This document shows positions 738 through 52,949 of a stretch of DNA of 64,000 bases, one piece after another. Origin of the DNA: Desulforapulum autotrophicum (GTDB lineage Bacteria; Desulfobacterota; Desulfobacteria; Desulfobacterales; Desulfolunaceae); NCBI GenBank assembly GCA_020723285.1, contig DYJE01000019.1, forward strand, positions 15,074 through 79,073, written 5' to 3'. A model generated the notes under the pieces. It was given only the letters and a program-made list of their open reading frames with translations, ran no database searches and was not told where the DNA came from. The translations under genes were made by a program, and so were the position numbers. Each line of letters opens with the position of its first letter. Positions within the stretch are counted from its first letter, which is position 1.

Positions 738-1781
738 GTGAAAAAGAAACAACGCTACCCTTTCCTGGCCATCGAAGGCCAGGACGACATGAAACTCGCC
801 CTGATCCTCAATGTGATCAACCCCGGCCTTTCCGGTGTCCTGATCCGGGGTGAAAAAGGCACGGCCAAATCCACGGCGGTCCGGGCCCTGGCCGATATCC
901 TGCCTGAGATTGTTGTGGTGAAAGACTGCCCGTTCCAGCGGAATCCGGACGGCAGTACGGCCGTTTGCGCGGACTGCGGGAAAGCGGCCTGCCGGGACCA
1001 TGTTCTCGCGGGCGGCAAACCCGAAACCCTGTCCCGGGGTGTCCGTGTGGTGGATCTTCCCGTGGGGGCCACCGAAGACCGGGTCGTGGGAACCATGGAC
1101 CTGGAAGAGGCCTTGAAGAAAGGTGAAAAGCGCATCGAACCGGGCCTTCTGGCCGCGGCCCACCGGGGGATTCTCTATGTGGACGAGGTGAACCTCCTGG
1201 ACGACCACGTGGTGGACGTGCTGCTCGATTCGGCGGCCATGGGGGTGAACACCATCGAACGGGAAGGGATCTCTTTTTCCCATCCGGCCCGGTTCACCCT
1301 GGTGGGGACCATGAACCCCGAAGAAGGGGAACTCCGGCCCCAGCTTCTGGACCGCTTCGGACTCTGCGTCACCGTCTCCGGCATCACCGATCCCGAGGCC
1401 CGGGTGAGGATTATGGAACGACGCATCGCCTTTGACGAAGACCCGGACGGATTCGCGGCAGAATGGAAAAAACCGTCGGCTGACCTGGCCGATGCGATTC
1501 GTCAGGCCATGATTCTTTATCCATCCGTGACCTGTCCCCGGCCGCTTCTCTACGACATCGCCGGATACTGCCTGGACGTGGGCGTGGACGGCCACCGTGG
1601 CGACATCATCATCCTGAAGACCGCAAGGACCCTGGCCGCCTATAACGGAAGGGCCGAGGTGACGGCGGGAGACGTCGACCGGGCCGCCGAACTGGTCCTC
1701 CCCCATCGCGTCCGCCGCCAGCCTTTGCAGGATGTTGTGGTGGACATAAAAGGTGTGCGGCAGGGTAAAAACATGGTATAG
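738..1781 (+). CDS. Mg-chelatase subunit I-like AAA+ ATPase
   Basis: Walker A GEKGTAKST, Walker B ILYVDEVNLL and MNPEEGELRPQLLDRF are typical of ChlI/BchI. A GTG start at 738 follows the RBS-like GGAGGA. The track ORF starts earlier, at 609, inside a repeat. Confidence 0.8.
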   Translation: MKKKQRYPFLAIEGQDDMKLALILNVINPGLSGVLIRGEKGTAKSTAVRALADILPEIVVVKDCPFQRNPDGSTAVCADCGKAACRDHVLAGGKPETLSRGVRVVDLPVGATEDRVVGTMDLEEALKKGEKRIEPGLLAAAHRGILYVDEVNLLDDHVVDVLLDSAAMGVNTIEREGISFSHPARFTLVGTMNPEEGELRPQLLDRFGLCVTVSGITDPEARVRIMERRIAFDEDPDGFAAEWKKPSADLADAIRQAMILYPSVTCPRPLLYDIAGYCLDVGVDGHRGDIIILKTARTLAAYNGRAEVTAGDVDRAAELVLPHRVRRQPLQDVVVDIKGVRQGKNMV

Positions 1782-1817
1782 GCGGACGGTTTGATTTTTA
1801 AGCCGGGGAATGGGATC

Positions 1818-2173
1818 TGTGGGAATGACGCAACCCCGTTGGGGTTGATGATTCGCGGCGCATTTACCCAGGGTAGCGGCGATGCCGCAACCCTGGGCTG
1901 TGATATGGAATCCCGTTGGGATTCTGCGTGGTGACGTTTGTGAAAAACACGAAACGGGAAAACGGGCGTTGGTTCAATCCCGACGTGAATGCCATTCCGC
2001 GTTGTGTGATGTTTTGTGAAAAAACATGAAACGGGGAATTGGGCGTTTATAAAATCCCACCGTGCCGGCTCGAATGCCCCAACGGGGCATCGTCGTATAG
2101 CCCAGGGTTGCGGCAACGCCTCTACCCTGGGAATCATGAATAACCATGCATCCAACCCCAACGGGGTTGTGTC
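1818..2173. repeat. REP/BIME-like hairpin cluster, copy A (356 bp)
   Basis: Several short palindromes are present: CCCAGGGTAGCGGCGATGCCGCAACCCTGGG, CAACCCCGTTGGGGTTG, AATCCCGTTGGGATT and ATGCCCCAACGGGGCAT. The block is near-identical to 2636-2991. Confidence 0.85.
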
Positions 2174-40370: not shown

Positions 40371-41423
40371 TTAACGGTTCTTTCCCATATGGGCAATAAA
40401 CATCCGGTATTGCTGGTCGGGAACGCTGCTTTTCCAATGCCCGGTAATGATGGCGGTATAGACCAGGATCAGGTATAAAGCGATAATCATAAGCCCCAGT
40501 TTTTTTTCCGTCCACCTCATTTTCAACCCGGTTGTTTTCAACATTAACGTTCCGTCAACCGGGCAACTGTCCACACAATCCATACAGCCGGTGCATTCCG
40601 GTGTTCTAACTTTTGGGATTTGCCCCACAAGGATATGATTCGGGCAGATGGCCGTACATTTACCGCATGCGATACATGATCCGTTATCCCTTGAAATATG
40701 TGTCGGGCCGGCATATGAAACAATCCCGGCCAGTGCCCCATAGGGGCAAAGATATCGGCACCAGAAATTCCGAACAAACAGGGAGAAACAGACGAGAAGG
40801 CTAAGGCAGATGAGAGTTGTTCCCGACATGTGGGTAAAAAACAACAGCATTCGCACATCGGACGTTTTATAGTAAAAACTATTGAGAAACGCATTGGTTT
40901 CAACAGTATTCATTTGTACAATAATCCATAGAAAAAACCCCAGAAAAATATATTTGACGCTTCTTAACGGCAGATCTACCCACCGTGGAAAAATGAAAGA
41001 GGGCATACCCCAATGATGGCCAAGCCTGAATATCCATTCCGACAAGGTGCCTACAGGGCAGAACCATCCGCAAAACGATTTGCTGAGCAGAAAAGAAGCC
41101 ACCAATGCGAATCCGAATATTACCATTGCCGCCGGATGAATACTGTCCCACTGAGCGGTGGTGATAAAATATTTCCAGCCCAGCAACGCACCAATGGGCA
41201 GGAAACCCTCAACGCCATGGGGTTTTGGAATGGTGATGGGCACTGCTTGCGCGGCTTGATGGACATACAAGGCGAATTGAACGCCTGTTGCAAGAGTCGC
41301 GATAAAAACACCCGTCTGGACCCATGACCGGACGCGGTGTCGATGAAACAATAGACTTAAGGTCTTTATCCGGCCACGATTCAAAGGTTGATTTTTTTTA
41401 TCGGAGATACCCATGACGTCCAT
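40371..41423 (-). CDS. NapH/MauN-type membrane polyferredoxin (quinol dehydrogenase-like)
   Basis: Two CX3CP motifs (CGWFCPVG, CRYLCPYG) in the membrane part, and two 4Fe-4S motifs (CIACGKCTAICP, CTGCMDCVDSCP). Confidence 0.75.
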   Translation of the reverse strand: MDVMGISDKKNQPLNRGRIKTLSLLFHRHRVRSWVQTGVFIATLATGVQFALYVHQAAQAVPITIPKPHGVEGFLPIGALLGWKYFITTAQWDSIHPAAMVIFGFALVASFLLSKSFCGWFCPVGTLSEWIFRLGHHWGMPSFIFPRWVDLPLRSVKYIFLGFFLWIIVQMNTVETNAFLNSFYYKTSDVRMLLFFTHMSGTTLICLSLLVCFSLFVRNFWCRYLCPYGALAGIVSYAGPTHISRDNGSCIACGKCTAICPNHILVGQIPKVRTPECTGCMDCVDSCPVDGTLMLKTTGLKMRWTEKKLGLMIIALYLILVYTAIITGHWKSSVPDQQYRMFIAHMGKNR

Positions 41424-41472
41424 GTCAATATCCTTTTGACCGTTATTTCATTCGTTCCATAGATTTTAACCG

Positions 41473-42009
41473 TTAAAGCCAGAACTCCGGATACCGCCTG
41501 CTTTTCGGCAGATTGTTCACCAGAAGGGCCACGAGAACCATAATGACCGCACCCATCCCCACGGGAACCACGGCGTAGAGATACCCCAGTGCGTGAATTT
41601 TTGAACTTCCGGTGACGGCGATCAGCGCTGTTGCACCACCCGGCGGATGGAGGGTTTTTGTGGCATGCATAAACGCGATGGCCGTTGCCACGGCAAGGGG
41701 AGAGGCAAACCACAGGTGGTTATGAAACAATTTGAATGCGGTGACTCCGACTATCGCGGAAATAATATGGCCGCCGATAACGTTTCTCGGCTGGGCCAGG
41801 GGGCTTCGAATCGCACCATAGACAAGCACGGCACTTGCCCCGAACGATCCGATGATCATAACAAGGTCACTTGTGTAGAACAGTTTGTCATCCAGATACG
41901 CCATGGGGATGATTCCCAAAAAAGCGCCGATCCATGACCAGAATATTTCAGAGACTTTAACACCCGGCGGGCTTTGGGTCGTTCCCTTCATTTTCGAGAA
42001 GTACTGCAT
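41473..42009 (-). CDS. HPP-family membrane protein (candidate nitrite channel/transporter)
   Basis: HPPGGATAL signature and 4-5 TM helices. Confidence 0.75.
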   Translation of the reverse strand: MQYFSKMKGTTQSPPGVKVSEIFWSWIGAFLGIIPMAYLDDKLFYTSDLVMIIGSFGASAVLVYGAIRSPLAQPRNVIGGHIISAIVGVTAFKLFHNHLWFASPLAVATAIAFMHATKTLHPPGGATALIAVTGSSKIHALGYLYAVVPVGMGAVIMVLVALLVNNLPKSRRYPEFWL

Positions 42010-42021
42010 GGCTGATTCCTT

Positions 42022-42630
42022 TCAAACATTATCTAGGCCGAAGGATTGCACGATATCCGAACGGGTTACGATGCCGCAGAGGTCTGAATTTTTATCAAGG
42101 ACCGGAACACGGTTGATTTTCTGGCAGTTAAAAATGGCCGCTATTTCGGAAAGCGGGGTGTTTTCATTTACCGTGATGGCTGGAGTTGTCATGATATCGC
42201 CGACCTTGCGGGTGTTTAACGAAGAGATCATGCAGCCGCTGTGATTCATGCACCGGGATAAGATGGCCATGAACGACTGGTTAACAGAGATACCGGCTTC
42301 GCGTAAAATATCTTTCTCAGAAAGAACCCCCACCACCTTGGAAAAAACATCCATCACCGGCAGACCGGTGATATTGTTTTCAGCCATGGTTCCCGCCGCG
42401 TCGCCAAGAAGGGCATCGATCCGGGTGTAAATCACCGGCCGACTCATGACATCTTTGGCTGTGCGTTTATTTGCCAAACGATTCAGCGCATGATGATAGG
42501 ATACTTTGTATATTTCGATGAAGTCTGCTGGTGTAATATCAATATATCCGTCAATCGCGGACATGGCTTCAAGAATATCCGCCTCTGAAATATCAATAGA
42601 GGATTGTTTGAACGTTTTTTCTGAATCCAT
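42022..42630 (-). CDS. CBS-pair domain protein
   Basis: Two CBS repeats (VMSRPVIY...ITGLPVMD and IMTTPAITV...INRVPVLD). The ATG at 42630 follows AAGGA. The track start at 42717 lies inside the predicted -10 hexamer. Confidence 0.75.
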   Translation of the reverse strand: MDSEKTFKQSSIDISEADILEAMSAIDGYIDITPADFIEIYKVSYHHALNRLANKRTAKDVMSRPVIYTRIDALLGDAAGTMAENNITGLPVMDVFSKVVGVLSEKDILREAGISVNQSFMAILSRCMNHSGCMISSLNTRKVGDIMTTPAITVNENTPLSEIAAIFNCQKINRVPVLDKNSDLCGIVTRSDIVQSFGLDNV

Positions 42631-42740
42631 GTTTATCCTTTTTAAGTTTTTTCCAATTTGGAGTTTGGTTTTTTTAGTAGAAGCGTCATAATTCAACAAT
42701 AATGCACGGTAGATCATAGTCGCATTAGCTTGTATTGTAT

Positions 42741-42905: not shown

Positions 42906-43598
42906 CTAATGATGGTTGAATATTATTTTCAATACCTTTGGAATAAAAAAAGAACCGATAAAAAGAAATACCGATAAGAAGACGTTCCAGTTCAAAAGGC
43001 CGCTCAGGTCACCGCTGGCTAAAACGTTTTTAACCGTCCCCACGAAAAAAGTGAACACAAAAGTCCCCACGATAATCCCCAGAGCCGTTCCCGCAGTGTA
43101 ATCCCTGAAACGGACTTTTGTGAGGCCCATGCCGAAGTTCATGGGCGTGAAAGGGAAATACACCAGACGAAGGTAAAGAACCGTGGCAAAACCGTTGCGT
43201 TCAATGGCGTCGTCGTACTGTTTCAGTTTTCCGCCGATGAGGCTTTCCGCGAAATCCCGGCCCAGGTAACGCCCGATGAAAAAGGCGAGGCTTGCGCCGA
43301 TCATGGCCCCGGTCCAGACCCAGAGGAACCCCCAATAAGGGCCGAACACGGCAGCCCCGATGGCGGCGAGCAGGGTGCCCGGAAGAAAAAGGCAGACCCC
43401 CGCCGCATAAATCAGGACATAAACAAGGGGAGCCCACAACCCGGCAGAGTCAAGAAGAAGGGCGAGCCGTTCTGCCGTCACATGGTTTTTAAGGGGTGAA
43501 AAACGGAGCAGCGTCACCGCCGCGATCATAAAGCAAACGAGAAGCGCCGCTTTGATCCATGGCCGTTTGGCCCTTTGTTTCACATTGAGATCAGGCAT
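42906..43598 (-). CDS. TVP38/TMEM64 (DedA-related) family membrane protein
   Basis: Multi-TM protein whose sequence (FLPGTLL, GRYLGRDF) I recognise as typical of the family. Confidence 0.7.
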   Translation of the reverse strand: MPDLNVKQRAKRPWIKAALLVCFMIAAVTLLRFSPLKNHVTAERLALLLDSAGLWAPLVYVLIYAAGVCLFLPGTLLAAIGAAVFGPYWGFLWVWTGAMIGASLAFFIGRYLGRDFAESLIGGKLKQYDDAIERNGFATVLYLRLVYFPFTPMNFGMGLTKVRFRDYTAGTALGIIVGTFVFTFFVGTVKNVLASGDLSGLLNWNVFLSVFLFIGSFFIPKVLKIIFNHH

Positions 43599-43610
43599 TA
43601 TGGGCCGCCT

Positions 43611-43928
43611 TTATTTTCCAAGAATTCGGTTCAAAAGCCCTTTTTTTTCGAGATGGGGTTCGGGAAGCCCGAGATGTCGGCAGATGCAGACTTCGACCTC
43701 GTGTTCGGAGATGTCGGCCCCTTCGACAACGACTTCGTCCCCCACCATGACCGCCGGGGCTACCGGAAGATCCAGATCGAAGTATTCGTCAGTCTGGTAC
43801 TCATCCTTGGGTTTGGATGTCACGGTGATGTCAACGTCATACTTTCCGCCCAGCCTGGGCATCATCTTTTTGAAGTTCTTTCAAGGTCTTCCGTTGGGTT
43901 CATTCAGAAAAAAACGGATATTCAGCAT
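43611..43928 (-). CDS. Candidate small thioredoxin-fold selenoprotein (in-frame TGA at 43881-43883)
   Basis: Strong RBS AAGGAGAACACC-ATG at 43928. Reads MLNIRFFLNEPNGRP-U-KNFKKMMPRL... in frame with the track ORF 43611-43865, which itself has no RBS. The C-terminal LPVAPAVMVGDEVVVEG resembles the cis-Pro/beta3-beta4 region of small thioredoxin-like proteins. Confidence 0.6.
43848..43860 (-). other. SECIS-like hairpin GCCCA-GGC-UGGGC, 20 nt after the UGA
   Basis: Read directly from the minus strand. Confidence 0.4.
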
Positions 43929-43940
43929 GGTGTTCTCCTT

Positions 43941-45704
43941 TTATGGTTTTGTGCTTTCTTTCGAAATGCGGTTCATGTGGACCAGGAATTTTTCAGGGGG
44001 TAAATAATCCACCAGCCTCAGATCATTTCGTTCCTCACCGGCAGAATCGAGGAACACCAGGGTGGGGACGCCCTTGATGCCGTACTGTTTAAGCAACTGT
44101 TCGTGATTCGGATCGCCACCCTGGGTTACATCAACTTTGACCATGGTGAACGTGTCTTTTGTTTTTCTGACCACGTCGGGGTGGTGGAACGTCACCGTGT
44201 CAAGTTCGCGGCACGGGGTGCACCAGTCGGCGTAAAAATCAATGATGACAGGGCGTTTTTCTGCTGCGGCTTTTTGAAGAACAGCCTCGGAGTATGGCTG
44301 CCAGGCTACACCTGGTCCTTTCATCATCCATGCGGTGATCCACATCGAAGCGGTGATAAGACACACACAACCAGTGGCGGCTTTGACAATTGAGAACACC
44401 TTCGACCCTGTTTCTGTTTTTTCCAGCCAGCCCAGGTGAATGCCAGCGGATAATGCGAGGGCCGCAGGCAGAAGAACTTTCAGCCCTTCGGGGAGGACTG
44501 GTCGGATGAAATGGGCCGCCATGCCCACAAGAACCCAGCCCATGAGTTTTCGGACCCAGATCATCCAGCCGCCTGCGCGGGGAAGTCGTTGAAGCTGACC
44601 GGAGAAGAGGGCAAGGATGAAAAGGGGAAGCCCTAGTCCAAGGCTCAATGTGAAAAATACAAGAAAACCCATGAAGGCGCTGCCCATACCTGCCACCCAG
44701 GTCAGAAGTCCCAGCACAAAGGGACCGATGCAGGGGGCGGCAACAACGCCGATGGTCAGCCCCATGAACAGGCTTCCGAAATAGCCGCTGTACGAGCGAC
44801 CGGCCATCCGGGTCATGGCTCCGGGCAGGCGAAGTTCCCAGAATCCGAAAAGACTGGTGGAGAACAGGATGAGAAAACCAGCGACAAAAGAAAGCACCAG
44901 GGGATTCTGGAGCATTGACCCCATCAGGCCGCCGGTCAGGGCCGCAGCCACCCCAAGGATGGAATTGGTGAGGGCGAGGCCCAAAAGGTAGCAGAGGCCG
45001 TGGAGAACAAGGACAAACTGACCTGGCCTGCTGTCGGCTGTTTTGCCTCCAAAAAACGACACAGTGATGGGGATCATGGGATAGACACACGGGGTTAAAT
45101 TCAGGGCGAGACCGCCGAAAAAGATGCCCAGAAGCGTGAGAAAAAGGCCCCAGCCTTTGACAGACCTTCCGGAATACGATCCCGATGCATCTTTCGGTGA
45201 CAGGGCAAGATCCACGGGGGTTGTTCCATAGGGCATGCCACGCTGCTGCCATTCTGGGAAACCATAGGGATCGCGGTAAACGTGACGGTAACCGAGTTTA
45301 ACGGCCACACGGGCCGCCGAGTCGCTGCGGACTCATGTAAGGCCCGCTCAGTAGAACACAATGCCCCGGTTTTTGTCCGGACCCAGAAATTTCCCGAGGG
45401 ATTCAGACTTACGCCACCTGGCCCACCCGGTGGGTTCCATGGGGAAATTCACCGCGCCCTTCATGTGGCCGGTCCGGAATTCCCATTCCTGGCGAGTGTC
45501 CACCAGAAGCAAACCGGACGGATTCTCCCGGTATTTTTGAATGAGTTCGTCGGTTTTAAGGATCGTGTAGCCGCCCCTTGCCGCCTCGGCGAGCACATCG
45601 TCCCATGTGGCCTGTTTCGGTGTGGCCGGGCGCTGGATAGACCAGACGGAAGCCACCGCAACGGCCACTGCGAGTAACGTCAGTAAAAAGGATGTTTTTT
45701 TCAT
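43941..45704 (-). CDS. Candidate selenoprotein: signal peptide - rhodanese (Y-U-AGLT-U-VRS) - DsbD/CcdA membrane domain - thioredoxin fusion, with two in-frame TGA codons (45348-45350 and 45333-45335)
   Basis: Track ORFs 45348-45704 and 43941-45308 are in the same frame, separated only by TGA-GCG-GGC-CTT-ACA-TGA. The rhodanese fold continues across both TGAs (IVFY|U|AGLT|U|VRSDSAARVAVKLGYRHVYRDPYGFPEWQQRGMPY). The DsbD-beta motifs TPCVYPMIP and AAPCIGPF and the C-terminal WCTPC thioredoxin motif are present. Confidence 0.65.
45302..45316 (-). other. SECIS-like hairpin after the second rhodanese UGA
   Basis: CGGCC-CGUGU-GGCCG starting 16 nt after the UGA. It overlaps the lower stem of the previous structure, so the two are alternative folds. 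Confidence 0.35.
45311..45345 (-). other. SECIS-like stem-loop after the first rhodanese UGA
   Basis: GGGCC-UUACAU-GAGUC-CGCAGC-GACUC-GGC-GGCCC. The upper stem starts 13 nt after the UGA. Confidence 0.4.
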
Positions 45705-45730: not shown

Positions 45731-46060
45731 TTAGTGAGTCCAGTCCATGATCTTGAAATCTTCACCCAGTTTTTTTTGAACAGCATCCCGGATCATTGAA
45801 AAATGTGGGCAAGGCATACCGATTGGGTTTCCCTTTGAAATGCATGATGCAAAAACAATAGCTTCGGCCCCACGATCAACCATGAGTTTTGCCCTTTGAA
45901 TGGATCGTTTGCCTGGACATCCGCCACAACTGACAAAACCTATGATTTCAACCGGTCCGGTGGCTTCAAACGCCATTTTCCCAGTGGAAGCGACTTTAAA
46001 ATCCGTCGTACCGGGGCACATATCCTCGGTCTGTTGACACCTGATAATTCCAACTTTCAT
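45731..46060 (-). CDS. CGGC-domain protein
   Basis: VSCGGCPGKR signature plus additional conserved Cys residues. RBS AGGAGA. Confidence 0.7.
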   Translation of the reverse strand: MKVGIIRCQQTEDMCPGTTDFKVASTGKMAFEATGPVEIIGFVSCGGCPGKRSIQRAKLMVDRGAEAIVFASCISKGNPIGMPCPHFSMIRDAVQKKLGEDFKIMDWTH

Positions 46061-46063
46061 CGA

Positions 46064-46726
46064 TCATCTCCTAAGTGTATTTTCAAACAAAAGAGTCACA
46101 AAACCTTCGTCCAGCGATTCTTTTCCAAGTTCATTCATGCCTTCTGGGGGCGGTAGAATGCTGGATTGTTCCTTTCTGAACAAGAAACCGGCTTCCTCTG
46201 CCATGGCTTTGACCTCATCCCTTTGATAGAATCTGGCGTGTCTGTAAATAACATGCCCTTTCTTGCCTCTTGCGGAATGGTACAGCCCCCAGGCGCTGTT
46301 TGACGGAACAAAGCCGATGATAAGGCGTCCCCGCCTTTTGAGCACACGGCTGCATTCACGAAGCACCCGTAAAGGATCATGGAGAAAGCAGAGGGTGCAC
46401 ACCATCAGCAGTCCGTCAAAAGAAGTATCTTTGAACGGCAGGTGTTCTCCCATGGCCTGGCAGGTCATAATGCCCCTACTGGACGCGATCATTGCCATGG
46501 ATCGCGAAGGCTCCACACTATGGCCGATGCCGAATGCCTGAGCGAAACGTCCTGAACCCGAACCCACCTCCAGCCATTTTCCCGTCGGGACCCCGAGGAT
46601 CTGATTCAGGGCTTCACGTTCCTGTGAAAAAATGAAAGACCCTTTTTCAGAGTCAAACCAGTGGTCGTATTCTTCCGCAAAATCGTCAAAAGGGTTGTTC
46701 CAAATCGACATGCCGCACGATTCCAC
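46064..46726 (-). CDS. Class I SAM-dependent methyltransferase
   Basis: Motif I LEVGSGSGRF and a Methyltransf_11-like layout. The start may instead be the ATG at 46711. Confidence 0.75.
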   Translation of the reverse strand: MESCGMSIWNNPFDDFAEEYDHWFDSEKGSFIFSQEREALNQILGVPTGKWLEVGSGSGRFAQAFGIGHSVEPSRSMAMIASSRGIMTCQAMGEHLPFKDTSFDGLLMVCTLCFLHDPLRVLRECSRVLKRRGRLIIGFVPSNSAWGLYHSARGKKGHVIYRHARFYQRDEVKAMAEEAGFLFRKEQSSILPPPEGMNELGKESLDEGFVTLLFENTLRR

Positions 46727-46728
46727 GA

Positions 46729-47037
46729 TTACCCCCGTCCCCAGAGCGGATCGTCACCGAACCGTTCTTGCCAAAGTTCTTCGGGAGTCAGGTTTTCACC
46801 CACGGACACTTCGGAAAAAGAAAAACGATAATTGGCGCAGTACTCCGTGATGGTCTTGTACGCGGCCACGATCTTTCTGGTCATGTCCGCACAAGTTTCC
46901 GGGTTGTCCCGACATCGGTCCGGATGCCATTTCGCCAGCATGGCCCGGTACGCCGATTTGACGGTTTTCAGGCTGGCTGTTTCAGGAAGACCAAGGATCG
47001 TCCGCGCTTCCGTGATCTCCTGGTATTTTTTCAGCAT
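46729..47037 (-). CDS. J-domain (DnaJ-like) protein
   Basis: LGLPETASLKTVKSAYRAMLAKWHPDR, including the HPD tripeptide. Confidence 0.75.
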   Translation of the reverse strand: MLKKYQEITEARTILGLPETASLKTVKSAYRAMLAKWHPDRCRDNPETCADMTRKIVAAYKTITEYCANYRFSFSEVSVGENLTPEELWQERFGDDPLWGRG

Positions 47038-47492
47038 GATTCGTCCCGTCGTCCTTCCCGCTCAAGCTTCGATATCATAAACGTCGCGCCTCTTTGGGAC
47101 AGCCCCAGGGTTTCGGCCAGGGTTTTCACATCCAGCGAACCCTTCTCTCGCCTGAGCGAAAGGACTTCGTCCTCAAGTTCCTCGAACCAGTCCTCGAACA
47201 GGACAAGCAGGTCCGGGTCGGTTATGGCCGACAACTGCCTGGATTGGGCCACTTTGTCCACCAGACTCTGGCACATCTTTGTTGGGTCGATACCTTCGCC
47301 CATGCATTCAGCGATTCAGAGGTGGACCATTCCGGACATCTTGTCATCGCCAGAATCGTCCAGAAGATTCATGAAAAACCGAGTTGCCGCGTCTTTGTCC
47401 ATCACTGAGAAAAGCTTTTTCAGCGTACTTCCGATGTCCTTCAGCGCCTGTTCCGGGTCCATGTTTTCGACGATGTTCAGAATATTTTTCAT
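47031..47492 (-). CDS. Candidate selenoprotein with a U-x3-C motif (in-frame TGA at 47316-47318) and a winged-helix-like C-terminus
   Basis: RBS AAGGAAG precedes the ATG at 47492. 58 codons are followed by TGA and then IAEC-MGEG..., in frame with track ORF 47031-47303, which has no RBS. The gene starts 19 nt after the arsR stop. Confidence 0.6.
47284..47301 (-). other. SECIS-like hairpin GGGCGA-AGGUA-UCG(A)CCC, 14 nt after the UGA
   Basis: Read directly. It has a GGU-containing apical loop and a single bulged A. Confidence 0.4.
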
Positions 47493-47511: not shown

Positions 47512-47847
47512 TTAAAACGTCTTCCGTGCTTTCAACAGATCTTCCGCCACGGTGTTCAGCGACCGGATCACGTCCAGTATTTTTTTGTCTGCCAGCTCGT
47601 AAAAAACAAAAGGGCCGCTTCGTTCTACATTTAATAGAATCGACCGTTTCAATTCCTTGAGATGATGCGACACAAGAGGCTGTGAAATACCAATTTCTTC
47701 CACGATCTGACCCACGGATTTCTTGCCTTGGCCAACGTAAAGCAAAATACGTAGTCGGTTTGGATCGGAAAGGGATTTAGCCAACAGAGAAACGCATTGA
47801 AGATAATCGTCATTTAGCATTTTTGCTTTCTTGATCAAAAAAATCAT
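47512..47847 (-). CDS. ArsR/SmtB-family transcriptional regulator
   Basis: DPNRLRILLYV...VGQIVEEIGISQPLVSHHLKELK winged-HTH signature. The canonical ELCVCDL metal-binding site is absent. Confidence 0.85.
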   Translation of the reverse strand: MIFLIKKAKMLNDDYLQCVSLLAKSLSDPNRLRILLYVGQGKKSVGQIVEEIGISQPLVSHHLKELKRSILLNVERSGPFVFYELADKKILDVIRSLNTVAEDLLKARKTF

Positions 47848-48074: not shown

Positions 48075-48249
48075 TTTTCACACAAAGCGTGATTCGGGAT
48101 AGGAGTTTTCACGATTCCGGTGGTAAATTTCACACAAAGCGTGATTCGAAAATTAAGCTTTTACGATCACAGATTTTTTTGATAATCGGATTTGCACGAT
48201 CCGGGAAAGAGCAGTTTGCACGGCTACAACGAAAAGTTTTCACGATTCC
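48075..48249 (+). repeat. Array of seven same-orientation TTT(T/G)CAC(G/A)-type repeats at the right edge of the insert
   Basis: Copies start at 48075, 48106, 48128, 48159, 48191, 48215 and 48237, spaced 22-32 bp apart. 48075-48127 and 48128-48180 form an imperfect 53-bp tandem. The last copy supplies the new fdhA stop codon. Confidence 0.7.
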
Positions 48250-50864
48250 CAGCAGTTACCTTCCCTGAAATGAAACGCCATCCACACCATGCCGGCCGGA
48301 ACTTCGTCGGTGATCCGGGCTTTGACCGAAACAGCGCCGCGCCGTGAGGAAACCCTGATGACCTCCCCGTCGGCGATGCCCATGCGACGGGCATCATCGG
48401 CCGAGATGTCGGCGGTCTCCTCACCGAGAAGCTCGTTCAGCCCTTGGGTTCTGCCGGTCTGGGTCCGGGTGTGGTAATGGTACAGGCGTCGGCCTGTGGA
48501 GAGAACCAAGGGGTATTCCGTGTCCGGCACTTCCGCAGGCGGGGTCCACACTGCCGGGGTGATGTTGCCTTTGCCGCAGGTGAAATTCCCGTTCAGGTGG
48601 AGAATGGCCGTACCGGGGTGTTCTTTGGTCGGACAGGGCCACTGGAGGCCGTCTCCCTCGATCCGCCCAAACGTGATTCCGGCGAAAATCGGGCAGAGCG
48701 CGGCGATCTCCCTGTCCCAGATGTCCTTGGAACTGGCGGAGGTCCAGGTGTGGCCCATGCGTCTTGCAATCTCCCGGAATATCCACCAGTTGGGCCGAGC
48801 CTGGCCCGGCGCGGGACAGGCTGCCCTAACGCGGCTCACCCTGCGCTCGCAGTTGGTGAACGTGCCGTCATCCTCGCTCCAGGCCGCAGACGGAAACACC
48901 ACATGGGCGAACCGTGTGGTTTCCGTTTCGAAGATATCCTGGCAAACCAGGAATTCCGCGCTGGAGAGTTCATGTTCCACCTTGGCGATATGGGGTTCCG
49001 CGCTGGCCAGGTTTTCGCCGAAAATGTACAGCGCCCGGATCTTCTTCGTCACCAGCCCTTCGAGCATCTGGGGGATCATCAGGCCGTTTTTATCCGGAAG
49101 GTCCTGAACGTTCCATGCGTCTTCGAATTTTTTCCGGGCTGCTGCGTCGGTCACGCTCTGGTATCCGGGAAACACGTTGGGCAGCGCCCCCATGTCACAG
49201 GCTCCCTGCACGTTGTTCTGCCCGCGTAAGGGATTCACCCCGCCGCATTCCACGCCCAGGTTCCCCAGAAGCATCTGGAGATTGGCCACCGACGCCACGT
49301 TGTCGCGGCCGCAGGTGTGTTCGGTGAGGCCCAGGGTGTACATCAGCATCATGGGTTTCACCGATGCGGCCATACGGGCTGTCCTGACAATCAGATCGCT
49401 GGGAATGCCACAGATTTCAGCCGCTTTTTCCGGCGTGTAATCCATGACGGTTTCCCTGAGTTTTTCAAAGTTCACCGTGTGGTTTTCGATGAATGCCTTG
49501 TCGTACAGGTTTTCCGTGATGAGGACGCGCATCACGCCGTTCAGAAACGCGATGTCCGTGCCCACTTTGATCTGGACGAACAGGTCGGCAAACCGGGCCA
49601 GGGTGTGTTTTCTCGGATCGACCACAATCAGTTTCGCACCCTGACGCACAGCGTTCTTGACAAACGTCGACGCCACGGGATGGGCCTCGGTCATGTTGGC
49701 TCCGATGACAAAGAACATCTTGGCGTTTTTCACTTCCTTCAGGCTGTTGGTCATGGCCCCGGATCCGAAGGTGGTGGCGAGCCCGGCCACGGTGGGCGCG
49801 TGGCAGACCCTGGCGCAGTGGTCGATGTTGTTGGTCTTGAACACGGCCCTGAACAGCTTCTGCATCTGGTAGGAATCTTCGTTGATGCTCCGGGCGCAGC
49901 TGACCCCGGCCACGGCATCCGGCCCATGCTCGGCAATGATCCGTGAGAAGGTGGACGCCACAAGATCAAGGGCCTCGTCCCAGGACGCGGGTTCAAGCAC
50001 GCCGTTTGTCCGGATCAGCGGGGTTTTCAGGCGGTCTGGGGAACTGATGAAATCATAGCCGAAACGCCCTTTGACACACAGGCGGCCCTGGTTGGGTTCG
50101 GCATTTTCCACGGCTGAAATATGAACGATTTTTCCATTCTTCACATGAAGCATCTGCTGGCAGCCCACCCCGCAGTACGGGCAGGTGGTTCTGACGCTTT
50201 GGGTCTCGCACAGCCGGGGCTTCTGAAAAGCGTCTTTCGGGACCAGAGCGCCGACGGGACAGGCCTGGATGCACTGGCCGCAGAACACACAGTCCGAATC
50301 CTTGAGGGCCATGTCGCCCTTGGCGATGATTTTCGTTTTCGCCCCACGGTATCCGAAGTCGATGGCGTCGTTCACCTGGATTCCCCGGCAGGCCTGGACA
50401 CACCGGCCGCAGAGAATGCATTTGGCGAAATTGCGAACGATCAGGGGGTTTACCGCTTCCATGGGGTAGGACGTGCGGGTGTCCGGGTATCTTCCGCCCT
50501 TGACCTGATAGCGGTAAGCCAGCTCCTGAAGCCGGCAGCCTCCGGACGCCGGGCAGACGAGACAGTCGTCGTGTCTGCCTGATGAAAGCATCAGTTCGAC
50601 GATGGTCTTTCGGGACTGGATGACCACCGGGGAGTCGGTACGGACCACCATACCTTTGGCCGCCGGAACAGTGCAGGCCGTCATCAGACTTCGCGCGCCC
50701 TCGACCTCCACCACGCAGATCCGGCAGGCCCCCGTGGGTGTGGTGTCTTTCAGGTGGCAAACCGTAGGGATGTCTATACCCGCGTTGCGGGCGGCTTCAA
50801 GTATGGTCTGACCCGGACTGAACACCACGTCCCGGCCGTTGATCACCAACAGGTTTTCGCTCAT
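48240..50864 (-). CDS. fdhA: Formate dehydrogenase alpha subunit (NuoG-like Fe-S N-terminus plus molybdopterin domains), Cys-type, 3'-truncated by insertion
   Basis: 2Fe-2S and 4Fe-4S motifs at the N-terminus. The active-site region HCARVCHAPTVAGL has Cys where Sec-type enzymes have U. The protein ends ...MAFHFREGN-CWES-stop and lacks the conserved NxLT...PEFK.CAV..EK tail, which is found at 32004-32102. Confidence 0.85.
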   Translation of the reverse strand: MSENLLVINGRDVVFSPGQTILEAARNAGIDIPTVCHLKDTTPTGACRICVVEVEGARSLMTACTVPAAKGMVVRTDSPVVIQSRKTIVELMLSSGRHDDCLVCPASGGCRLQELAYRYQVKGGRYPDTRTSYPMEAVNPLIVRNFAKCILCGRCVQACRGIQVNDAIDFGYRGAKTKIIAKGDMALKDSDCVFCGQCIQACPVGALVPKDAFQKPRLCETQSVRTTCPYCGVGCQQMLHVKNGKIVHISAVENAEPNQGRLCVKGRFGYDFISSPDRLKTPLIRTNGVLEPASWDEALDLVASTFSRIIAEHGPDAVAGVSCARSINEDSYQMQKLFRAVFKTNNIDHCARVCHAPTVAGLATTFGSGAMTNSLKEVKNAKMFFVIGANMTEAHPVASTFVKNAVRQGAKLIVVDPRKHTLARFADLFVQIKVGTDIAFLNGVMRVLITENLYDKAFIENHTVNFEKLRETVMDYTPEKAAEICGIPSDLIVRTARMAASVKPMMLMYTLGLTEHTCGRDNVASVANLQMLLGNLGVECGGVNPLRGQNNVQGACDMGALPNVFPGYQSVTDAAARKKFEDAWNVQDLPDKNGLMIPQMLEGLVTKKIRALYIFGENLASAEPHIAKVEHELSSAEFLVCQDIFETETTRFAHVVFPSAAWSEDDGTFTNCERRVSRVRAACPAPGQARPNWWIFREIARRMGHTWTSASSKDIWDREIAALCPIFAGITFGRIEGDGLQWPCPTKEHPGTAILHLNGNFTCGKGNITPAVWTPPAEVPDTEYPLVLSTGRRLYHYHTRTQTGRTQGLNELLGEETADISADDARRMGIADGEVIRVSSRRGAVSVKARITDEVPAGMVWMAFHFREGNCWES

Positions 50865-50897: not shown

Positions 50898-52832
50898 TTA
50901 TGTGTGACAAACCTCCGCAAGAATCCGTAAATCCCCGTTCCGTACCGTGAATCCCACAGAATCCAGGTATTCGAAAACAGGGACGGACGTGCTGCGGCTG
51001 TTTCCCGTAATCTCTTGACAATCGGCCAGGCAGACACTCCCGTGATTCAGGATGTGGCCTTTAACCCGTGTTTTGATGCGTTCCATCGTCCTTACGCTGA
51101 TGAACCGGTTGTTGTTCAGCTTGACCAGCAGATTCAGGCTGTGGAGAAAATAGCTCATCCGCCTGACCTTGTCTTCGTTCCAGGGTCCCTCGGTCTCCCG
51201 GCAGAACCGGCTGACACTGAACGGAACGGAACCCGACTGTTCCGCATAACCCAGAAGCCGCGCCTTCAGGCGTTCTTCGTCATCGGTGAGGGTGATGGAA
51301 AACCCCGGAACAGTATACCCGCCCTGGCTGCGGATCAGGCGGCCTTTTCCGCAGAGCGCCCGGACCGCCTCCTGAATCAGGTCCATGGAAACGGGGCGGT
51401 CCAGCGCGTCGCGGATCTCGTTTGAATTCACCTGACTTTTCAGGGATCCCTGCTCCACTGTCCGCCGTGCGGCGTGATACACCCGCTCCACGAGCTCCGG
51501 GACATAATCGGACAGGTACACGCCACCATCGCCGGTTTTCATGACCGTTCTGTCCGCCTGTTTTCTGTTGAACGCTTCGCGGATCCGTTCAAGGGAAAAA
51601 CCGGACCGCGCCGCAAGGTCCTGTGCGAAAACCGGTGCGTTCACCGACTGAACAAGAACGGCGTCGACAAAACCTTCGGCATCATCGGACTGAAGTGCAT
51701 CGAGAACGGGGAGTATCCGCCCGGCGCGGTTTTCCGTGTATTTTTCCACCGGAATTTCAAGAATGACACCGCCTCCGATGATCCGGTTCCGGTTCATCAG
51801 GGCCACGACAAAGCGGTCTCGGGGATCAATGCTCACAGGCTCGGAAAACCGGAACTGAACAAACGCGCGGTTTCCGGGGTGTATCCCCTGCTGTTTCATC
51901 ACCACAGCCACAGCGTTCACACACAGGGTTCCGATGTACAGTTTGACCCGCATCCGGTTGTTCAGCGGGGTTCCGGCCGAAGCAAGAACACGCACATCGG
52001 CGTTGGCCAGCGAGGATACGACCCCGGTGCCGGGTTGCCTGAGACTCATGCCCCGGCATACATCCGTGAGGGTGGTTTTGTTGAGATTGATCCCTATGCG
52101 CTGCCCCGCTGCGGCATGATCCACCCGGACGCCATGGGATTCAAGAAACCGCGCCCGTGTTTTCAGGCCCGAAGGCATGATCTCCACCTGCTCGTCCCGG
52201 TTCAGCGTTCCTGACAGCACCGTTCCGCTGACCACCGTTCCAAATCCACTGATTCCGGTGATCCGGTCGATCCACAGACGGAACGGCCGGAGATGGCTCC
52301 GGCATGCCATGCGGCAGGCCTCTTTCATGATGCTGTCCCGGATCTGAGCGGACCCTGAAAGGTCCATGGCGGAAAAGGCCACGACCTCCTTTCCCTCAAG
52401 AAAACTACCATGGATCAGCTCACGGATTTCCAGTTCAGCCAGCTCCAGCGTTTCATCGTCCACAAGATCGGATTTGGTCAGGACCACCAGTCCGCCTTTG
52501 GCGCTGAAAAATTTCAGTATTTCAAGATGTTCCACGGTCTGAGGCATCACCCCGTCGTCCGCGGCCACGATCAGCAGGGCCAGATCCACGCCGCTCAGTC
52601 CGCGCACCGTATTCCGAAGAAAATCCGTATGGCCGGGGACATCCACCAGGGCCAGACTGATCCCGTTTTCGGAAAGCCAGGATGCGATGCCCGACTCCAT
52701 GGACATGCCGCGCCGCTGTTCTTCTTTCATCCGGTCTGTGTCAACGCCGGTAAGGCACCGGACCAGGGTGGTTTTCCCATGATCCACATGCCCGGCGACA
52801 CCGATGGTGATATATTGCGTCATATCGTTCAA
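50898..52832 (-). CDS. selB: Selenocysteine-specific translation elongation factor SelB
   Basis: GTPase motifs AGHVDHGKTTL and DVPGH, the TKSD box, and a long C-terminal winged-helix extension. It is adjacent to tRNA-Sec. Confidence 0.9.
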   Translation of the reverse strand: MNDMTQYITIGVAGHVDHGKTTLVRCLTGVDTDRMKEEQRRGMSMESGIASWLSENGISLALVDVPGHTDFLRNTVRGLSGVDLALLIVAADDGVMPQTVEHLEILKFFSAKGGLVVLTKSDLVDDETLELAELEIRELIHGSFLEGKEVVAFSAMDLSGSAQIRDSIMKEACRMACRSHLRPFRLWIDRITGISGFGTVVSGTVLSGTLNRDEQVEIMPSGLKTRARFLESHGVRVDHAAAGQRIGINLNKTTLTDVCRGMSLRQPGTGVVSSLANADVRVLASAGTPLNNRMRVKLYIGTLCVNAVAVVMKQQGIHPGNRAFVQFRFSEPVSIDPRDRFVVALMNRNRIIGGGVILEIPVEKYTENRAGRILPVLDALQSDDAEGFVDAVLVQSVNAPVFAQDLAARSGFSLERIREAFNRKQADRTVMKTGDGGVYLSDYVPELVERVYHAARRTVEQGSLKSQVNSNEIRDALDRPVSMDLIQEAVRALCGKGRLIRSQGGYTVPGFSITLTDDEERLKARLLGYAEQSGSVPFSVSRFCRETEGPWNEDKVRRMSYFLHSLNLLVKLNNNRFISVRTMERIKTRVKGHILNHGSVCLADCQEITGNSRSTSVPVFEYLDSVGFTVRNGDLRILAEVCHT

Positions 52833-52857
52833 TAACCATCCGTTATAGTGGCATCAA

Positions 52858-52949
52858 TGGAAGGGGCAAGGGGAATCGAACCTCCTCTTTGCGTTTCAGG
52901 CAAAGCCGACGGTTTTGAAGACCGCGGGGCGCCCAGCACCATTGCCCCT
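52858..52949 (-). tRNA. selC: tRNA-Sec (anticodon UCA)
   Basis: 92 nt with anticodon loop CUUCAAA, a long variable arm (CGGCUUUGCCUGAAACGCAAAGAGG), T-loop GGTTCGATTCC, an 8-bp acceptor stem AGGGGCAA/TTGCCCCT and an encoded CCA. Folded by eye only. Confidence 0.8.

What the first reader, a model, noticed from the sequence alone, without database searches (positions are those of the whole stretch)
43611..43928. Small thioredoxin-fold-like ORF that acquires an RBS and N-terminus only if a UGA is read through
Seen: AAGGAGAACACC-ATG at 43928 opens MLNIRFFLNEPNGRP, then TGA, then KNFKKMMPRLGG... in frame with the annotated 84-aa ORF. That annotated ORF's own ATG has no Shine-Dalgarno sequence. The UGA sits at the beta1-to-helix1 junction, where CxxC or single-Cys motifs sit in thioredoxin-fold proteins. 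A later LPVAPAVMVGDEVVVEG segment looks like the cis-Pro/beta3-beta4 region. No partner Cys is adjacent (GRPU). Inference: this is a single-Sec thioredoxin-like protein, possibly the cytoplasmic partner of the neighbouring DsbD-type fusion.
Basis: partly seen in the sequence, partly recalled or inferred. Interest (0 to 1): 0.7.

Follow-up and report, generated by a model that had tools for sequence, protein, structure and literature searches.

The report
Mis-annotated selenoprotein TsoC, known family
The small gene really is a selenocysteine-containing thioredoxin-fold protein whose start was missed because its UGA was read as a stop, but it belongs to a family (TsoC, part of the "three selenoprotein operon") that is already described and curated.

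Summary
On the minus strand, AAGGAG-N6-ATG (43928) opens MLNIRFFLNEPNGRP, followed by TGA (43883..43881) in frame with the 84-aa ORF. The UGA is a selenocysteine codon. It is TGA in 82/82 copies from 80 reference genomes plus the window, and in 78/81 metagenomic copies; the other 3 are TGC/TGT. The 15 upstream codons show coding periodicity and are preceded by a conserved SD and ATG. A hairpin UGCCCA-GGY-UGGGCG lies 19 nt downstream, is fixed at synonymous sites, and is lost in all four Cys forms examined. selB and tRNA-Sec lie 7-9 kb away. An AlphaFold model of a 66%-identical Cys homologue has a thioredoxin fold with residue 16 capping helix 1.

It is not new. NCBIfam NF045708, "NEPxGxxU motif selenoprotein TsoC", matches at 148.8 bits (cut-off 45). 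The window carries the whole published Tso operon: tsoR, tsoA (1 Sec), tsoB (rhodanese/DsbD fusion, 2 Sec, UxxxxU) and tsoC. Whether TsoC feeds electrons to TsoB is untested. TsoB lies directly upstream in 75/80 genomes, but TsoC lacks a CxxC pair. Interest is low: a correct call on a known family.

The parts
43611..43928 (-). tsoC coding sequence, 105 codons including Sec16 (MLNIRFFLNEPNGRPUKNFKK...ILGK), stop TAA
   Evidence: Searches give the reading frame. NCBIfam NF045708 'NEPxGxxU motif selenoprotein TsoC' scores 148.8 bits against a cut-off of 45, E = 3.3e-44.
43935..43940 (-). Shine-Dalgarno AAGGAG, 6 nt before the ATG and immediately after the tsoB stop codon
   Evidence: Read. An SD-like motif lies upstream of the N-terminal ATG in 80/82 family copies, against 2/82 for the internal ATG. 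It is the only conserved block in the otherwise unconstrained upstream sequence.
43881..43883 (-). UGA codon 16, decoded as selenocysteine
   Evidence: TGA in 82/82 copies from 80 GTDB loci plus the window. TGA in 78/81 metagenomic copies, with TGC x2 and TGT x1. The Cys homologue P0010 has TGT. 'W' homologues are TGA in the DNA.
43847..43861 (-). SECIS-like hairpin U-GCCCA-GGC-UGGGC-G: 6 bp, apical loop GGY; the stem starts 19 nt after the UGA and the loop 25 nt after it
   Evidence: RNAalifold consensus. Synonymous-site fixation: Pro CCC 79/80, Arg AGG 74/74, Leu TTG/CTG only, Gly GGC 75/81, while a control Pro 16 codons later uses all four codons. Third-position entropy is 0.39 bits here against 1.13-1.19 in flanking codons. 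The 3' arm is lost in all four Cys forms.
43680..43682 (-). Codon for Cys83, the only other near-invariant Cys, in the C-terminal helix
   Evidence: Cys in 81/82 Sec-form copies. Replaced by Arg in the TsoB-less 'GDSC' Cys forms.
43941..45704 (-). tsoB: signal peptide, rhodanese domain with FY-U-AGLT-U-VRS, DsbD transmembrane domain and C-terminal thioredoxin domain (WCTPC). It has two in-frame UGAs at 45350..45348 and 45335..45333. A mechanical ORF list breaks it into a 118-aa and a 455-aa ORF.
   Evidence: With both UGAs read through, NF045694 TsoB scores 950.8 bits (cut-off 805); the 455-aa ORF alone scores 741. TGA/TGA in 64/64 copies.
47031..47492 (-). tsoA: LULAxC-motif selenoprotein (here HL-U-IAEC), UGA at 47318..47316. 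A mechanical ORF list breaks it into 58-aa and 90-aa ORFs.
   Evidence: The two halves match NF045695 at positions 1-55 and 61-144. TGA in 56/56 copies.
47512..47847 (-). tsoR, ArsR/SmtB-type regulator
   Evidence: NF045707 scores 151 bits against a cut-off of 115.
42906..43598 (-). DedA/VTT-domain membrane protein, start 12 nt after the tsoC stop
   Evidence: Pfam VTT_dom E = 4.4e-25. A homologue is found in 37/80 loci, in most of them downstream of tsoC on the same strand.
50898..52949 (-). selB (50898..52832) and the tRNA-Sec gene (52858..52949): the decoding machinery
   Evidence: TIGR00475 selB scores 277.6 bits against a cut-off of 242. ARAGORN calls tRNA-SeC, anticodon tca. Rfam RF01852 scores 51.1 bits.

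Best explanation
Identity (shown): 43928..43611 (minus strand) is tsoC, a 105-residue cytoplasmic selenoprotein with a thioredoxin fold. It is the last of the three selenoprotein genes of the Tso operon (tsoR-tsoA-...-tsoB-tsoC).

Decoding (inferred from established bacterial Sec decoding): translation starts at the ATG behind AAGGAG. At codon 16, SelB carrying Sec-tRNA(Sec), both encoded 7-9 kb away, is recruited by a compact hairpin (UGCCCA-GGY-UGGGCG) 19 nt downstream and inserts selenocysteine. The hairpin lies inside the coding sequence, which is why 'M-P-R-L-G' and its codons are frozen in Sec forms.

Placement of the Sec (model): Sec16 caps the N-terminus of helix alpha1. This is the position of the redox-active residues in thioredoxin-fold proteins, most likely that of the second Cys of CxxC (G-x-x-U).

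Function (inferred, not shown): TsoC acts as a selenol-based redox or chalcogen-transfer protein on the cytoplasmic side. It would work with TsoB, a DsbD-like membrane conduit ending in a periplasmic Sec-x4-Sec rhodanese domain, and with TsoA, under control of the ArsR-type regulator TsoR. The biochemical substrate is unknown.
For: Family assignment:
- NF045708 TsoC scores 148.8 bits against a cut-off of 45.
- TsoB, TsoA and TsoR models are all met in the window.
- The operon order is conserved, with TsoB directly upstream in 75/80 genomes.
- The family and operon are listed in a 2026 review citing Haft & Tolstoy 2025 (PMC13188914).

Sec decoding:
- TGA in 82/82 and 78/81 copies, with real Cys codons in the rest.
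- Entropy by codon position in the 15 N-terminal codons is 0.26/0.11/1.19 bits, against a flat 1.7 upstream of the ATG.
- ATG at codon -15 in 81/82 copies and an SD in 80/82.
- The hairpin is fixed at synonymous sites and lost in Cys forms, where residues 25-27 also vary (KLD, VLG, KFD, QLA, LLQ, GLE, WLK).
- selB and tRNA-Sec are in the window.
- TGA is the commonest ordinary stop among the window's long ORFs, 22/41.

Fold:
- AlphaFold model of the Cys homologue P0010 (66% identical): pLDDT 77, topology b-a-b-a-b-b-a, residue 16 directly before helix 17-29.
- The Foldseek top 50 PDB hits are almost all thioredoxins, glutaredoxin or ArsD.
- Weak Thioredoxin_3 and TIGR00412 hits cover residues 42-80.

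Location: there is no signal peptide, and strand beta1 starts at residue 2.
Against: - No experimental evidence for selenium incorporation is available here.
- In this window alone the hairpin region does not fold better than shuffles (z = 0.17).
- The hairpin is invariant, so there is no compensatory covariation, only synonymous-site conservation.
- No conserved lower SECIS stem was found.
- Thioredoxin-family sequence models are below threshold (13.1 vs 24.8 bits; 14.1 vs 62), and Foldseek scores are modest (E about 5e-3, TM about 0.5).
- For the functional part, TsoC has one Sec and no CxxC, so it cannot by itself carry out the two-electron dithiol chemistry by which thioredoxin reduces DsbD.
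- Two genomes (L066, L077) have tsoA-tsoC with no tsoB between them.
- The 'GDSC' Cys forms have no TsoB nearby at all.
Confidence: 0.9

Rival explanations
1. TsoC is not an electron donor to TsoB. Instead it is a carrier or chaperone that binds a chalcogen or metalloid atom (persulfide/perselenide sulfur or selenium, or As/Te/Hg) on Sec16 and hands it on, as ArsD does for As(III) or TusA/DsrE do for sulfur. This is a rival only for the functional half of the best explanation; the identity as a selenoprotein is unchanged.
For: - TsoC has a single Sec and no CxxC.
- The operon is controlled by an ArsR/SmtB-type regulator, a family that senses metal(loid)s or persulfides.
- TsoB carries a rhodanese (sulfur/selenium transferase) domain.
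- The 'GDSC' Cys forms of the family sit between a TauE/SafE permease (PF01925, E = 1.8e-29) and a DsrE-like sulfur-relay protein (PF02635, E = 2.6e-16), with no TsoB.
- ArsD, a thioredoxin-fold metallochaperone without CxxC, is among the structural hits (ranks 17 and 20).
- A DedA/VTT membrane protein follows tsoC.
Against: - The neighbourhood evidence for the Cys forms rests on two nearly identical contigs.
- ArsD ranks no better than ordinary thioredoxins in the fold search.
- No metal-binding or sulfur-relay sequence model matches TsoC itself.
- The TsoB C-terminal half is a bona fide DsbD-type electron conduit, NF001419 E = 4e-73, which needs some cytoplasmic reductant.
Confidence: 0.35
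2. The UGA is an ordinary stop. A 15-residue upstream peptide is made (or nothing is), and the real protein is the annotated 84-aa product starting at the internal Met.
For: This is how public gene callers annotate it (P0001 and about 80 of the best 120 homologues are 82-85 aa). TGA is a common stop in this window.
Against: - The internal ATG has an SD in only 2/82 copies.
- The 15 upstream codons are conserved with third-position-only variation.
- Cys-codon homologues are continuous across the site.
- The 84-aa product would lack strand beta1 and the active-site loop of the fold.
- A curated selenoprotein model matches residues 2-87 across the UGA.
Confidence: 0.02
3. The UGA is read as Trp or another standard amino acid, either because the organism uses genetic code 4/25 or by near-cognate read-through. 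This is what the 'W' in many database homologues would suggest.
For: About 20 full-length database homologues carry W at this position.
Against: - The one W call checked at the DNA level (P0006) is TGA under the standard code, and its locus is flagged as not translating to the stored protein. The W calls are therefore taken as gene-caller artefacts on short contigs.
- No TGG codon was seen at this site in 163 copies.
- TGA terminates 22 of 41 long ORFs in the window.
- selB, tRNA-Sec and a SECIS-like hairpin are present.
Confidence: 0.01

Closest known systems
NCBIfam NF045708, 'NEPxGxxU motif selenoprotein TsoC' (Tso = three selenoprotein operon; Haft & Tolstoy 2025, mSystems, as cited in PMC13188914)
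   Same: It is the same family. The equivalog model matches at 148.8 bits (cut-off 45), the NEPNGRPU motif is present, there is one Sec, and the gene lies directly downstream of tsoB in an operon with tsoA and tsoR.
   Different: Nothing essential differs. In this window three extra genes (DnaJ-domain protein, DVU_1556-like methyltransferase, CGGC-domain protein) sit between tsoA and tsoB, whereas in most genomes tsoA directly precedes tsoB. The primary paper could not be read here.
Rdx-type selenoproteins (SelW, SelT, SelH and bacterial SelW-like proteins; established knowledge)
   Same: They are small thioredoxin-like-fold selenoproteins with Sec at the second position of a CxxC-type motif between beta1 and alpha1.
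   Different: Rdx proteins keep the first Cys (CxxU), whereas TsoC has Gly there (GxxU). No sequence similarity was detected by Pfam or NCBIfam.
MTH895/ArsE / Thioredoxin_3 (PF13192, TIGR00412) minimal thioredoxin-like proteins
   Same: They have the same size and b-a-b-a-b-b-a topology, with weak similarity over the cis-Pro/beta3-beta4/alpha3 half (residues 42-80; E = 0.1 and 0.045).
   Different: The matches are below both curated thresholds. Those families have CxxC, whereas TsoC has a longer beta1-alpha1 loop (NEPNGxxU) and a single Sec.
E. coli thioredoxin to DsbD electron relay (established knowledge)
   Same: A cytoplasmic thioredoxin-fold protein is encoded with, or acts on, a DsbD-type membrane conduit. 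TsoB matches DsbD (NF001419) over its beta and gamma domains, E = 4e-73.
   Different: TrxA uses a CxxC dithiol and TsoC has none. In TsoB the DsbD alpha domain is replaced by a rhodanese domain with two Sec residues. No interaction has been tested.
ArsD arsenic metallochaperone (PDB 3kgk, 3mwh)
   Same: It has a thioredoxin fold without a CxxC redox pair, its ligand-binding residues lie near the beta1-alpha1 loop, and its operon is controlled by an ArsR-type repressor. It is a structural hit with target-normalised TM 0.54-0.55.
   Different: There is no sequence similarity. ArsD uses three Cys residues, whereas TsoC has one Sec plus a distant Cys83. No arsenic genes lie in the operon.

Membership tests
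NCBIfam NF045708 selenoprotein TsoC | Score at or above the curated cut-off of the equivalog model | tested here: met
   148.8 bits against a cut-off of 45, E = 3.3e-44, residues 2-87 on profile positions 1-86/87.
NCBIfam NF045708 selenoprotein TsoC | NEPxGxxU motif with U encoded by UGA | tested here: met
   NEPNGRP followed by TGA at 43883..43881. The same motif and codon occur in 82/82 reference copies.
NCBIfam NF045708 selenoprotein TsoC | Lies in the tso operon with TsoA, TsoB and TsoR | tested here: met
   NF045695 matches in two halves, NF045694 scores 950.8 bits after read-through, and NF045707 scores 151 bits, all on the same strand upstream. The gene order is conserved in the loci.
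Bacterial selenoprotein gene (general criteria) | In-frame UGA conserved in orthologues, with Cys in some homologues at the same column | tested here: met
   TGA in 82/82 and 78/81 copies. Cys codons occur in P0010 (TGT), L083 (TGC), L086 (TGT) and L091 (TGC).
Bacterial selenoprotein gene (general criteria) | Sequence upstream of the UGA is translated and conserved, with its own start signals | tested here: met
   Codon-position entropy is 0.26/0.11/1.19 bits against a flat 1.7 upstream of the ATG. ATG in 81/82 copies and an SD in 80/82.
Bacterial selenoprotein gene (general criteria) | SECIS stem-loop shortly downstream of the UGA with G in the apical loop (loop 16-37 nt after the UGA in published bacterial search models; established knowledge) | tested here: met
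   A 6-bp hairpin with loop GGY sits 25 nt after the UGA. Its synonymous sites are fixed and it is lost in Cys forms. Binding by SelB itself cannot be tested with these tools.
Bacterial selenoprotein gene (general criteria) | Sec machinery in the genome (selA, selB, selC, selD) | tested here: inconclusive
   selB and tRNA-Sec (selC) are in the window. selA and selD were not looked for across the window, and the rest of the genome is not available.
Bacterial selenoprotein gene (general criteria) | Selenium demonstrated in the protein | not testable with these tools
   This needs 75Se labelling or mass spectrometry.
Thioredoxin-fold superfamily | b-a-b-a-b-b-a topology with the reactive residue at the N-terminus of helix 1 | tested here: met
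   AlphaFold model of the 66%-identical Cys homologue: E2-8, H17-29, E32-38, H46-51, E59-62, E65-69, H75-86, with residue 16 before H17. The Foldseek top hits are thioredoxins.
Thioredoxin-fold superfamily | Conserved (cis-)Pro before beta3 | tested here: inconclusive
   Pro58 is nearly invariant and directly precedes beta3.
Thioredoxin / Thioredoxin_3 / MTH895 sequence families | CxxC active site and a score above the Pfam or TIGRFAM threshold | tested here: not met
   The motif is GxxU with no first Cys. PF13192 scores 13.1 against 24.8 bits, and TIGR00412 scores 14.1 against 62 bits. hhalign against E. coli Trx gives probability 0.3%.
Cytoplasmic electron donor of a DsbD-type conduit (TrxA-like role) | Dithiol able to reduce the membrane-domain disulfide; demonstrated interaction | not testable with these tools
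   Only gene linkage is available, with TsoB directly upstream in 75/80 loci. The single-Sec chemistry differs from TrxA.

The most novel reading that the evidence does not exclude
TsoC would be the dedicated cytoplasmic entry point of an all-selenium transmembrane relay. Sec16 attacks the membrane-domain disulfide of TsoB, resolved by Cys83, by TsoA's U-x3-C, or by a cellular thiol. Electrons then pass through the DsbD-like core and its thioredoxin domain to a periplasmic rhodanese carrying a Sec-x4-Sec diselenide, which reduces or captures an extracytoplasmic chalcogen or metalloid species sensed by TsoR. No such selenol-driven DsbD-type pathway has been characterised biochemically, to my knowledge.
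Probability: 0.25. Interest if true: 0.6.

Novelty: already known. Interest (0 to 1): 0.22.

Why it matters
The practical value is for annotation. In this window three genes carrying four Sec codons appear as truncated or split ORFs in a mechanical ORF list, and the public gene call for tsoC is the truncated product. Most of the best database hits of the family are stored either as 82-85-aa truncations or with a spurious Trp at the Sec position. The case also shows clearly how a SECIS inside a coding region freezes both codons and amino acids: M-P-R-L-G is fixed in Sec forms and free in Cys forms. The biological question is still open, namely what the Tso system does and why it invests in four selenocysteines. 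The neighbourhood data here (rhodanese, DsbD core, ArsR-type regulator, DedA; TauE and DsrE next to Cys forms) point to chalcogen or metalloid handling across the membrane.

Tried and rejected
- **Primary paper:** Haft & Tolstoy 2025 (PMC12013261 / 10.1128/msystems.01417-24) is not held, so what is 'known' rests on NCBIfam and a 2026 review.
- **Sec16-Cys83 distance:** model coordinates are not exposed, so neither this distance nor the cis-Pro could be measured.
- **PDB sequence search with the family profile:** it gave only chance matches, such as ribosomal protein L9/uL6 at E = 0.012.
- **hhalign against E. coli thioredoxin:** not significant.
- **Pfam scan of 23 family members:** no family above threshold.
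- **Single-sequence fold of the 64 nt after the UGA:** not better than shuffles.
- **RNAalifold:** no conserved lower SECIS stem.
- **Second in-frame stop in L068 at codon 81:** it is TAA, not TGA, so it is a nonsense mutation or sequencing error rather than a second Sec.
- **Short C-terminus of the formate dehydrogenase ORF:** checked for a hidden UGA extension and none is plausible.
- **TsoX (HSGNPxU):** the motif is not found in the window.
- **Rfam:** no family other than tRNA-Sec reaches threshold in the window.
- **Sec/Cys coupling between TsoC and TsoB/TsoA:** it could not be assessed because the Cys-form contigs are too short or lack TsoB.

Full report
**1. The observation**

The minus strand of 43400..44200 reads TAA (stop of the upstream gene, 43943..43941), AAGGAG (43940..43935), AACACC, then ATG at 43928. 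After that come 14 codons (LNIRFFLNEPNGRP), TGA at 43883..43881, and KNFKKMMPRLGG..., in frame with the 84-aa ORF 43611..43865. The public gene call for this exact sequence is the 84-aa truncation (P0001, 100% identical, from NCBI and Logan). The description is accurate at the stated coordinates.

**2. Is the UGA decoded?**

A search with U replaced by C found 1,690 relatives. They fall into two length classes:
- **About 84 aa:** these cover only the part after the UGA.
- **About 104-106 aa:** these cover the whole read-through product. They share the N-terminus MLKVRFFLNEPNGK and have either C or W at the UGA column.

The one W form checked at the DNA level (P0006) is a TGA translated as Trp by a gene caller on a short contig. 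The C form checked (P0010) has a real TGT.

- **Reference genomes:** 80 species-representative genomes were fetched, nearly all Desulfobacterota. The codon is TGA in every copy, 82/82 including a second copy in L019 and the window.
- **Metagenomes:** of 81 copies, 78 are TGA, 2 TGC and 1 TGT.
- **Start signals:** the codon 15 positions upstream of the TGA is ATG in 81/82 copies. An SD-like motif precedes it in 80/82, against 2/82 for the internal ATG.
- **Coding periodicity:** the 15 N-terminal codons vary almost only at third positions, with entropy 0.26/0.11/1.19 bits. The 45 nt before the ATG are unconstrained at about 1.7 bits at all three positions, apart from the SD.

**3. SECIS**

Nineteen nucleotides after the UGA lies the hairpin U-GCCCA-GGY-UGGGC-G (window 43861..43847), with six pairs and apical loop GGC or GGU. 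In the window alone the region folds no better than shuffles (z = 0.17), and the stem is invariant, so there is no covariation. The evidence comes from synonymous sites:

| Codon (relative to UGA) | Residue | Codon usage |
|---|---|---|
| +8 | Pro | CCC in 79/80 |
| +9 | Arg | AGG in 74/74 (one of six synonyms) |
| +10 | Leu | only TTG or CTG |
| +11 | Gly | GGC in 75/81 |
| +24 (control) | Pro | CCC 35, CCT 15, CCA 12, CCG 7 |

Third-position entropy in the hairpin codons is 0.39 bits, against 1.13-1.19 in the flanking codons. In all four Cys forms examined at the DNA level the 3' arm is lost (AUCCCCGUGUUGGGA, CCCAAACUGGAC, CCCGGGUUGGAG, CCCUGGUUGAAG). The 'RLG' residues that are fixed in Sec forms also vary in Cys forms. 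This is what a SECIS embedded in coding sequence predicts.

The decoding factors are close by. selB is at 50898..52832 (TIGR00475, 277.6 bits) and tRNA-Sec at 52858..52949. TGA is otherwise the commonest stop of long ORFs in the window, 22/41, so the genetic code is standard.

**4. Fold**

Mean pLDDT is 77. The topology is beta1 2-8, alpha1 17-29, beta2 32-38, alpha2 46-51, beta3 59-62, beta4 65-69, alpha3 75-86. This is the minimal thioredoxin/glutaredoxin fold.

The Foldseek top 50 against the PDB are almost all thioredoxins, plus glutaredoxin and ArsD. The scores are modest (E = 5e-3 to 3e-2, TM about 0.5) but uniform.

Sequence models of thioredoxin families are below threshold. No solved structure is related by sequence. 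A non-significant hhalign alignment pairs P15-C16-K17 with P34-C35-K36 of E. coli thioredoxin. That fits GxxU corresponding to CxxC with the first Cys replaced by Gly, but it is only a hint. A second Cys, Cys83 in the last helix, is conserved in 81/82 Sec forms. Its distance to residue 16 could not be measured.

**5. What it is called**

NCBIfam holds an equivalog model for exactly this protein: NF045708, 'NEPxGxxU motif selenoprotein TsoC', matched at 148.8 bits against a cut-off of 45. The remaining genes of the operon are these:
[quoted passage not shown] The 455-aa ORF alone matches only from profile position 130 and stays below the cut-off (741 vs 805 bits). Reading through two UGAs at 45350..45348 and 45335..45333 (IVFY-U-AGLT-U-VRS) joins it to the 118-aa ORF that carries a signal peptide and a rhodanese domain. 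The score then rises to 950.8 bits.
- **tsoA:** it lies further upstream (NF045695, 47492..47031). A UGA at 47318..47316 (HL-U-IAEC) splits it into two ORFs.
- **tsoR:** this is an ArsR/SmtB-type regulator (NF045707, 47847..47512).
- **Conservation:** these Sec codons are TGA/TGA in 64/64 tsoB copies and TGA in 56/56 tsoA copies.

A 2026 review lists TsoA, TsoB (UxxxxU, 2 Sec) and TsoC (GxxU, 1 Sec), and explains Tso as 'three selenoprotein operon', citing Haft & Tolstoy 2025 (PMC13188914). The primary paper is not held. The finding is therefore a correct rediscovery of a known, curated family.

**6. Neighbourhood and mechanism**

The order tsoR-tsoA-tsoB-tsoC is conserved. TsoB lies directly upstream of tsoC in 75/80 genomes. 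Most exceptions are loci in which tsoC lies within a few hundred bases of the locus start, but L066 and L077 have tsoA-tsoC without tsoB. A DedA/VTT homologue is found in 37/80 loci, in most of them downstream of tsoC on the same strand. In the window tsoC starts 12 nt after the tsoB stop, and the DedA gene starts 12 nt after the tsoC stop.

TsoB's C-terminal two-thirds match DsbD (NF001419, E = 4e-73) over its membrane and thioredoxin domains. By analogy with DsbD (established knowledge), the signal-peptide-led rhodanese domain and the C-terminal thioredoxin domain should both be periplasmic, and the membrane core should be reduced from the cytoplasm. TsoC has no signal peptide and is the only thioredoxin-fold protein encoded beside it. 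It also faces a chemical difficulty: TsoC has one Sec, no CxxC, and only a probably distant Cys83.

An alternative is that TsoC carries a chalcogen or metalloid atom on Sec16. Four points favour this:
- The regulator is of the ArsR type.
- TsoB has a rhodanese domain.
- The 'GDSC' Cys forms (L086, L091; Cys83 replaced by Arg) lie between a TauE/SafE permease and a DsrE-like protein with no TsoB.
- ArsD is among the fold matches.

One other Cys form (L082, 'GKPC') does follow a TsoB-like gene and is followed by a GcvH-like protein and an ArsR-type regulator. I rate the redox-relay reading and the carrier reading as comparably likely. Neither is shown.

**7. Verdict**

- **Observation:** confirmed.
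- **Interpretation:** supported (selenoprotein, thioredoxin fold, single Sec). The partner role is plausible but untested.
- **Novelty:** already known.
- **Interest:** low, apart from the annotation correction (four missed Sec codons in three genes of this window) and the still unknown biochemistry of the Tso system.

Noticed in passing
window 43941..45704 (-), UGAs at 45350..45348 and 45335..45333: The neighbouring 'DsbD-type fusion' is itself a double selenoprotein (TsoB). Its signal peptide and rhodanese domain form a separate 118-aa ORF that ends at the first of two UGAs 15 nt apart (FY-U-AGLT-U-VRS). Both are TGA in 64/64 other copies. Conserved GC-rich hairpins follow, and one overlaps the second UGA.
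   Followed up: partly
window 47031..47492 (-), UGA at 47318..47316: TsoA (LULAxC-motif selenoprotein, here HL-U-IAEC) is split into 58-aa and 90-aa ORFs. A hairpin with an AGGUG loop starts about 16 nt after the UGA. Its C-terminal half gives weak winged-helix (MarR/HTH_24-like) Pfam hits.
   Followed up: partly
window 50898..52949 (-): selB and the tRNA-Sec gene are adjacent and lie next to a formate dehydrogenase alpha gene (48240..50864). That gene has Cys (ARVCHAP), not Sec, at the catalytic position.
   Followed up: partly
window 45731..47037 (-): Three genes are inserted between tsoA and tsoB: a DnaJ-domain protein, a DVU_1556-like methyltransferase and a CGGC-domain protein. Most genomes have tsoA directly before tsoB. 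A DnaJ-domain gene lies between tsoA and tsoB in five other loci (L001, L009, L020, L021, L054).
   Followed up: partly
L081 (P0006) and about 20 other ENA proteins: Many database homologues carry 'W' at the Sec position. The one checked at the DNA level (P0006/L081) is a TGA that the gene caller translated as Trp on a short contig. Such entries can mislead Sec/Cys alignments.
   Followed up: yes
L086 2197..2475 and L091 3086..3364: A Cys-form subgroup (NEPNGDSC, 92 aa, Cys83 replaced by Arg, hairpin lost) lies between a 565-aa TauE/SafE-family membrane protein and a DsrE-like protein, with no TsoA, TsoB or TsoR nearby.
   Followed up: partly
L019 166..465 and about 1580..1880: This locus has two tsoC copies about 1.4 kb apart, both with TGA. 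The second is more divergent (FFLKKPNGNS-U) and its hairpin is GCCCAGUCUGGGC.
   Followed up: no
L068 903..1217: A tsoC copy has an extra in-frame TAA at codon 81, a position that is often Cys. It is probably a pseudogene or an assembly error in a long-read MAG.
   Followed up: yes
L066 and L077: In two Syntrophobacteraceae/Desulforhabdus genomes tsoA is followed directly by tsoC, with no tsoB between them.
   Followed up: no
window 40371..42717 (-): Downstream of the DedA gene lie a CBS-pair protein, an HPP-family membrane protein and a NapH-like ferredoxin-type membrane protein. These are found only sporadically in other tso loci (NapH-like in 6/80, CBS in 2/80, HPP in 1/80).
   Followed up: partly
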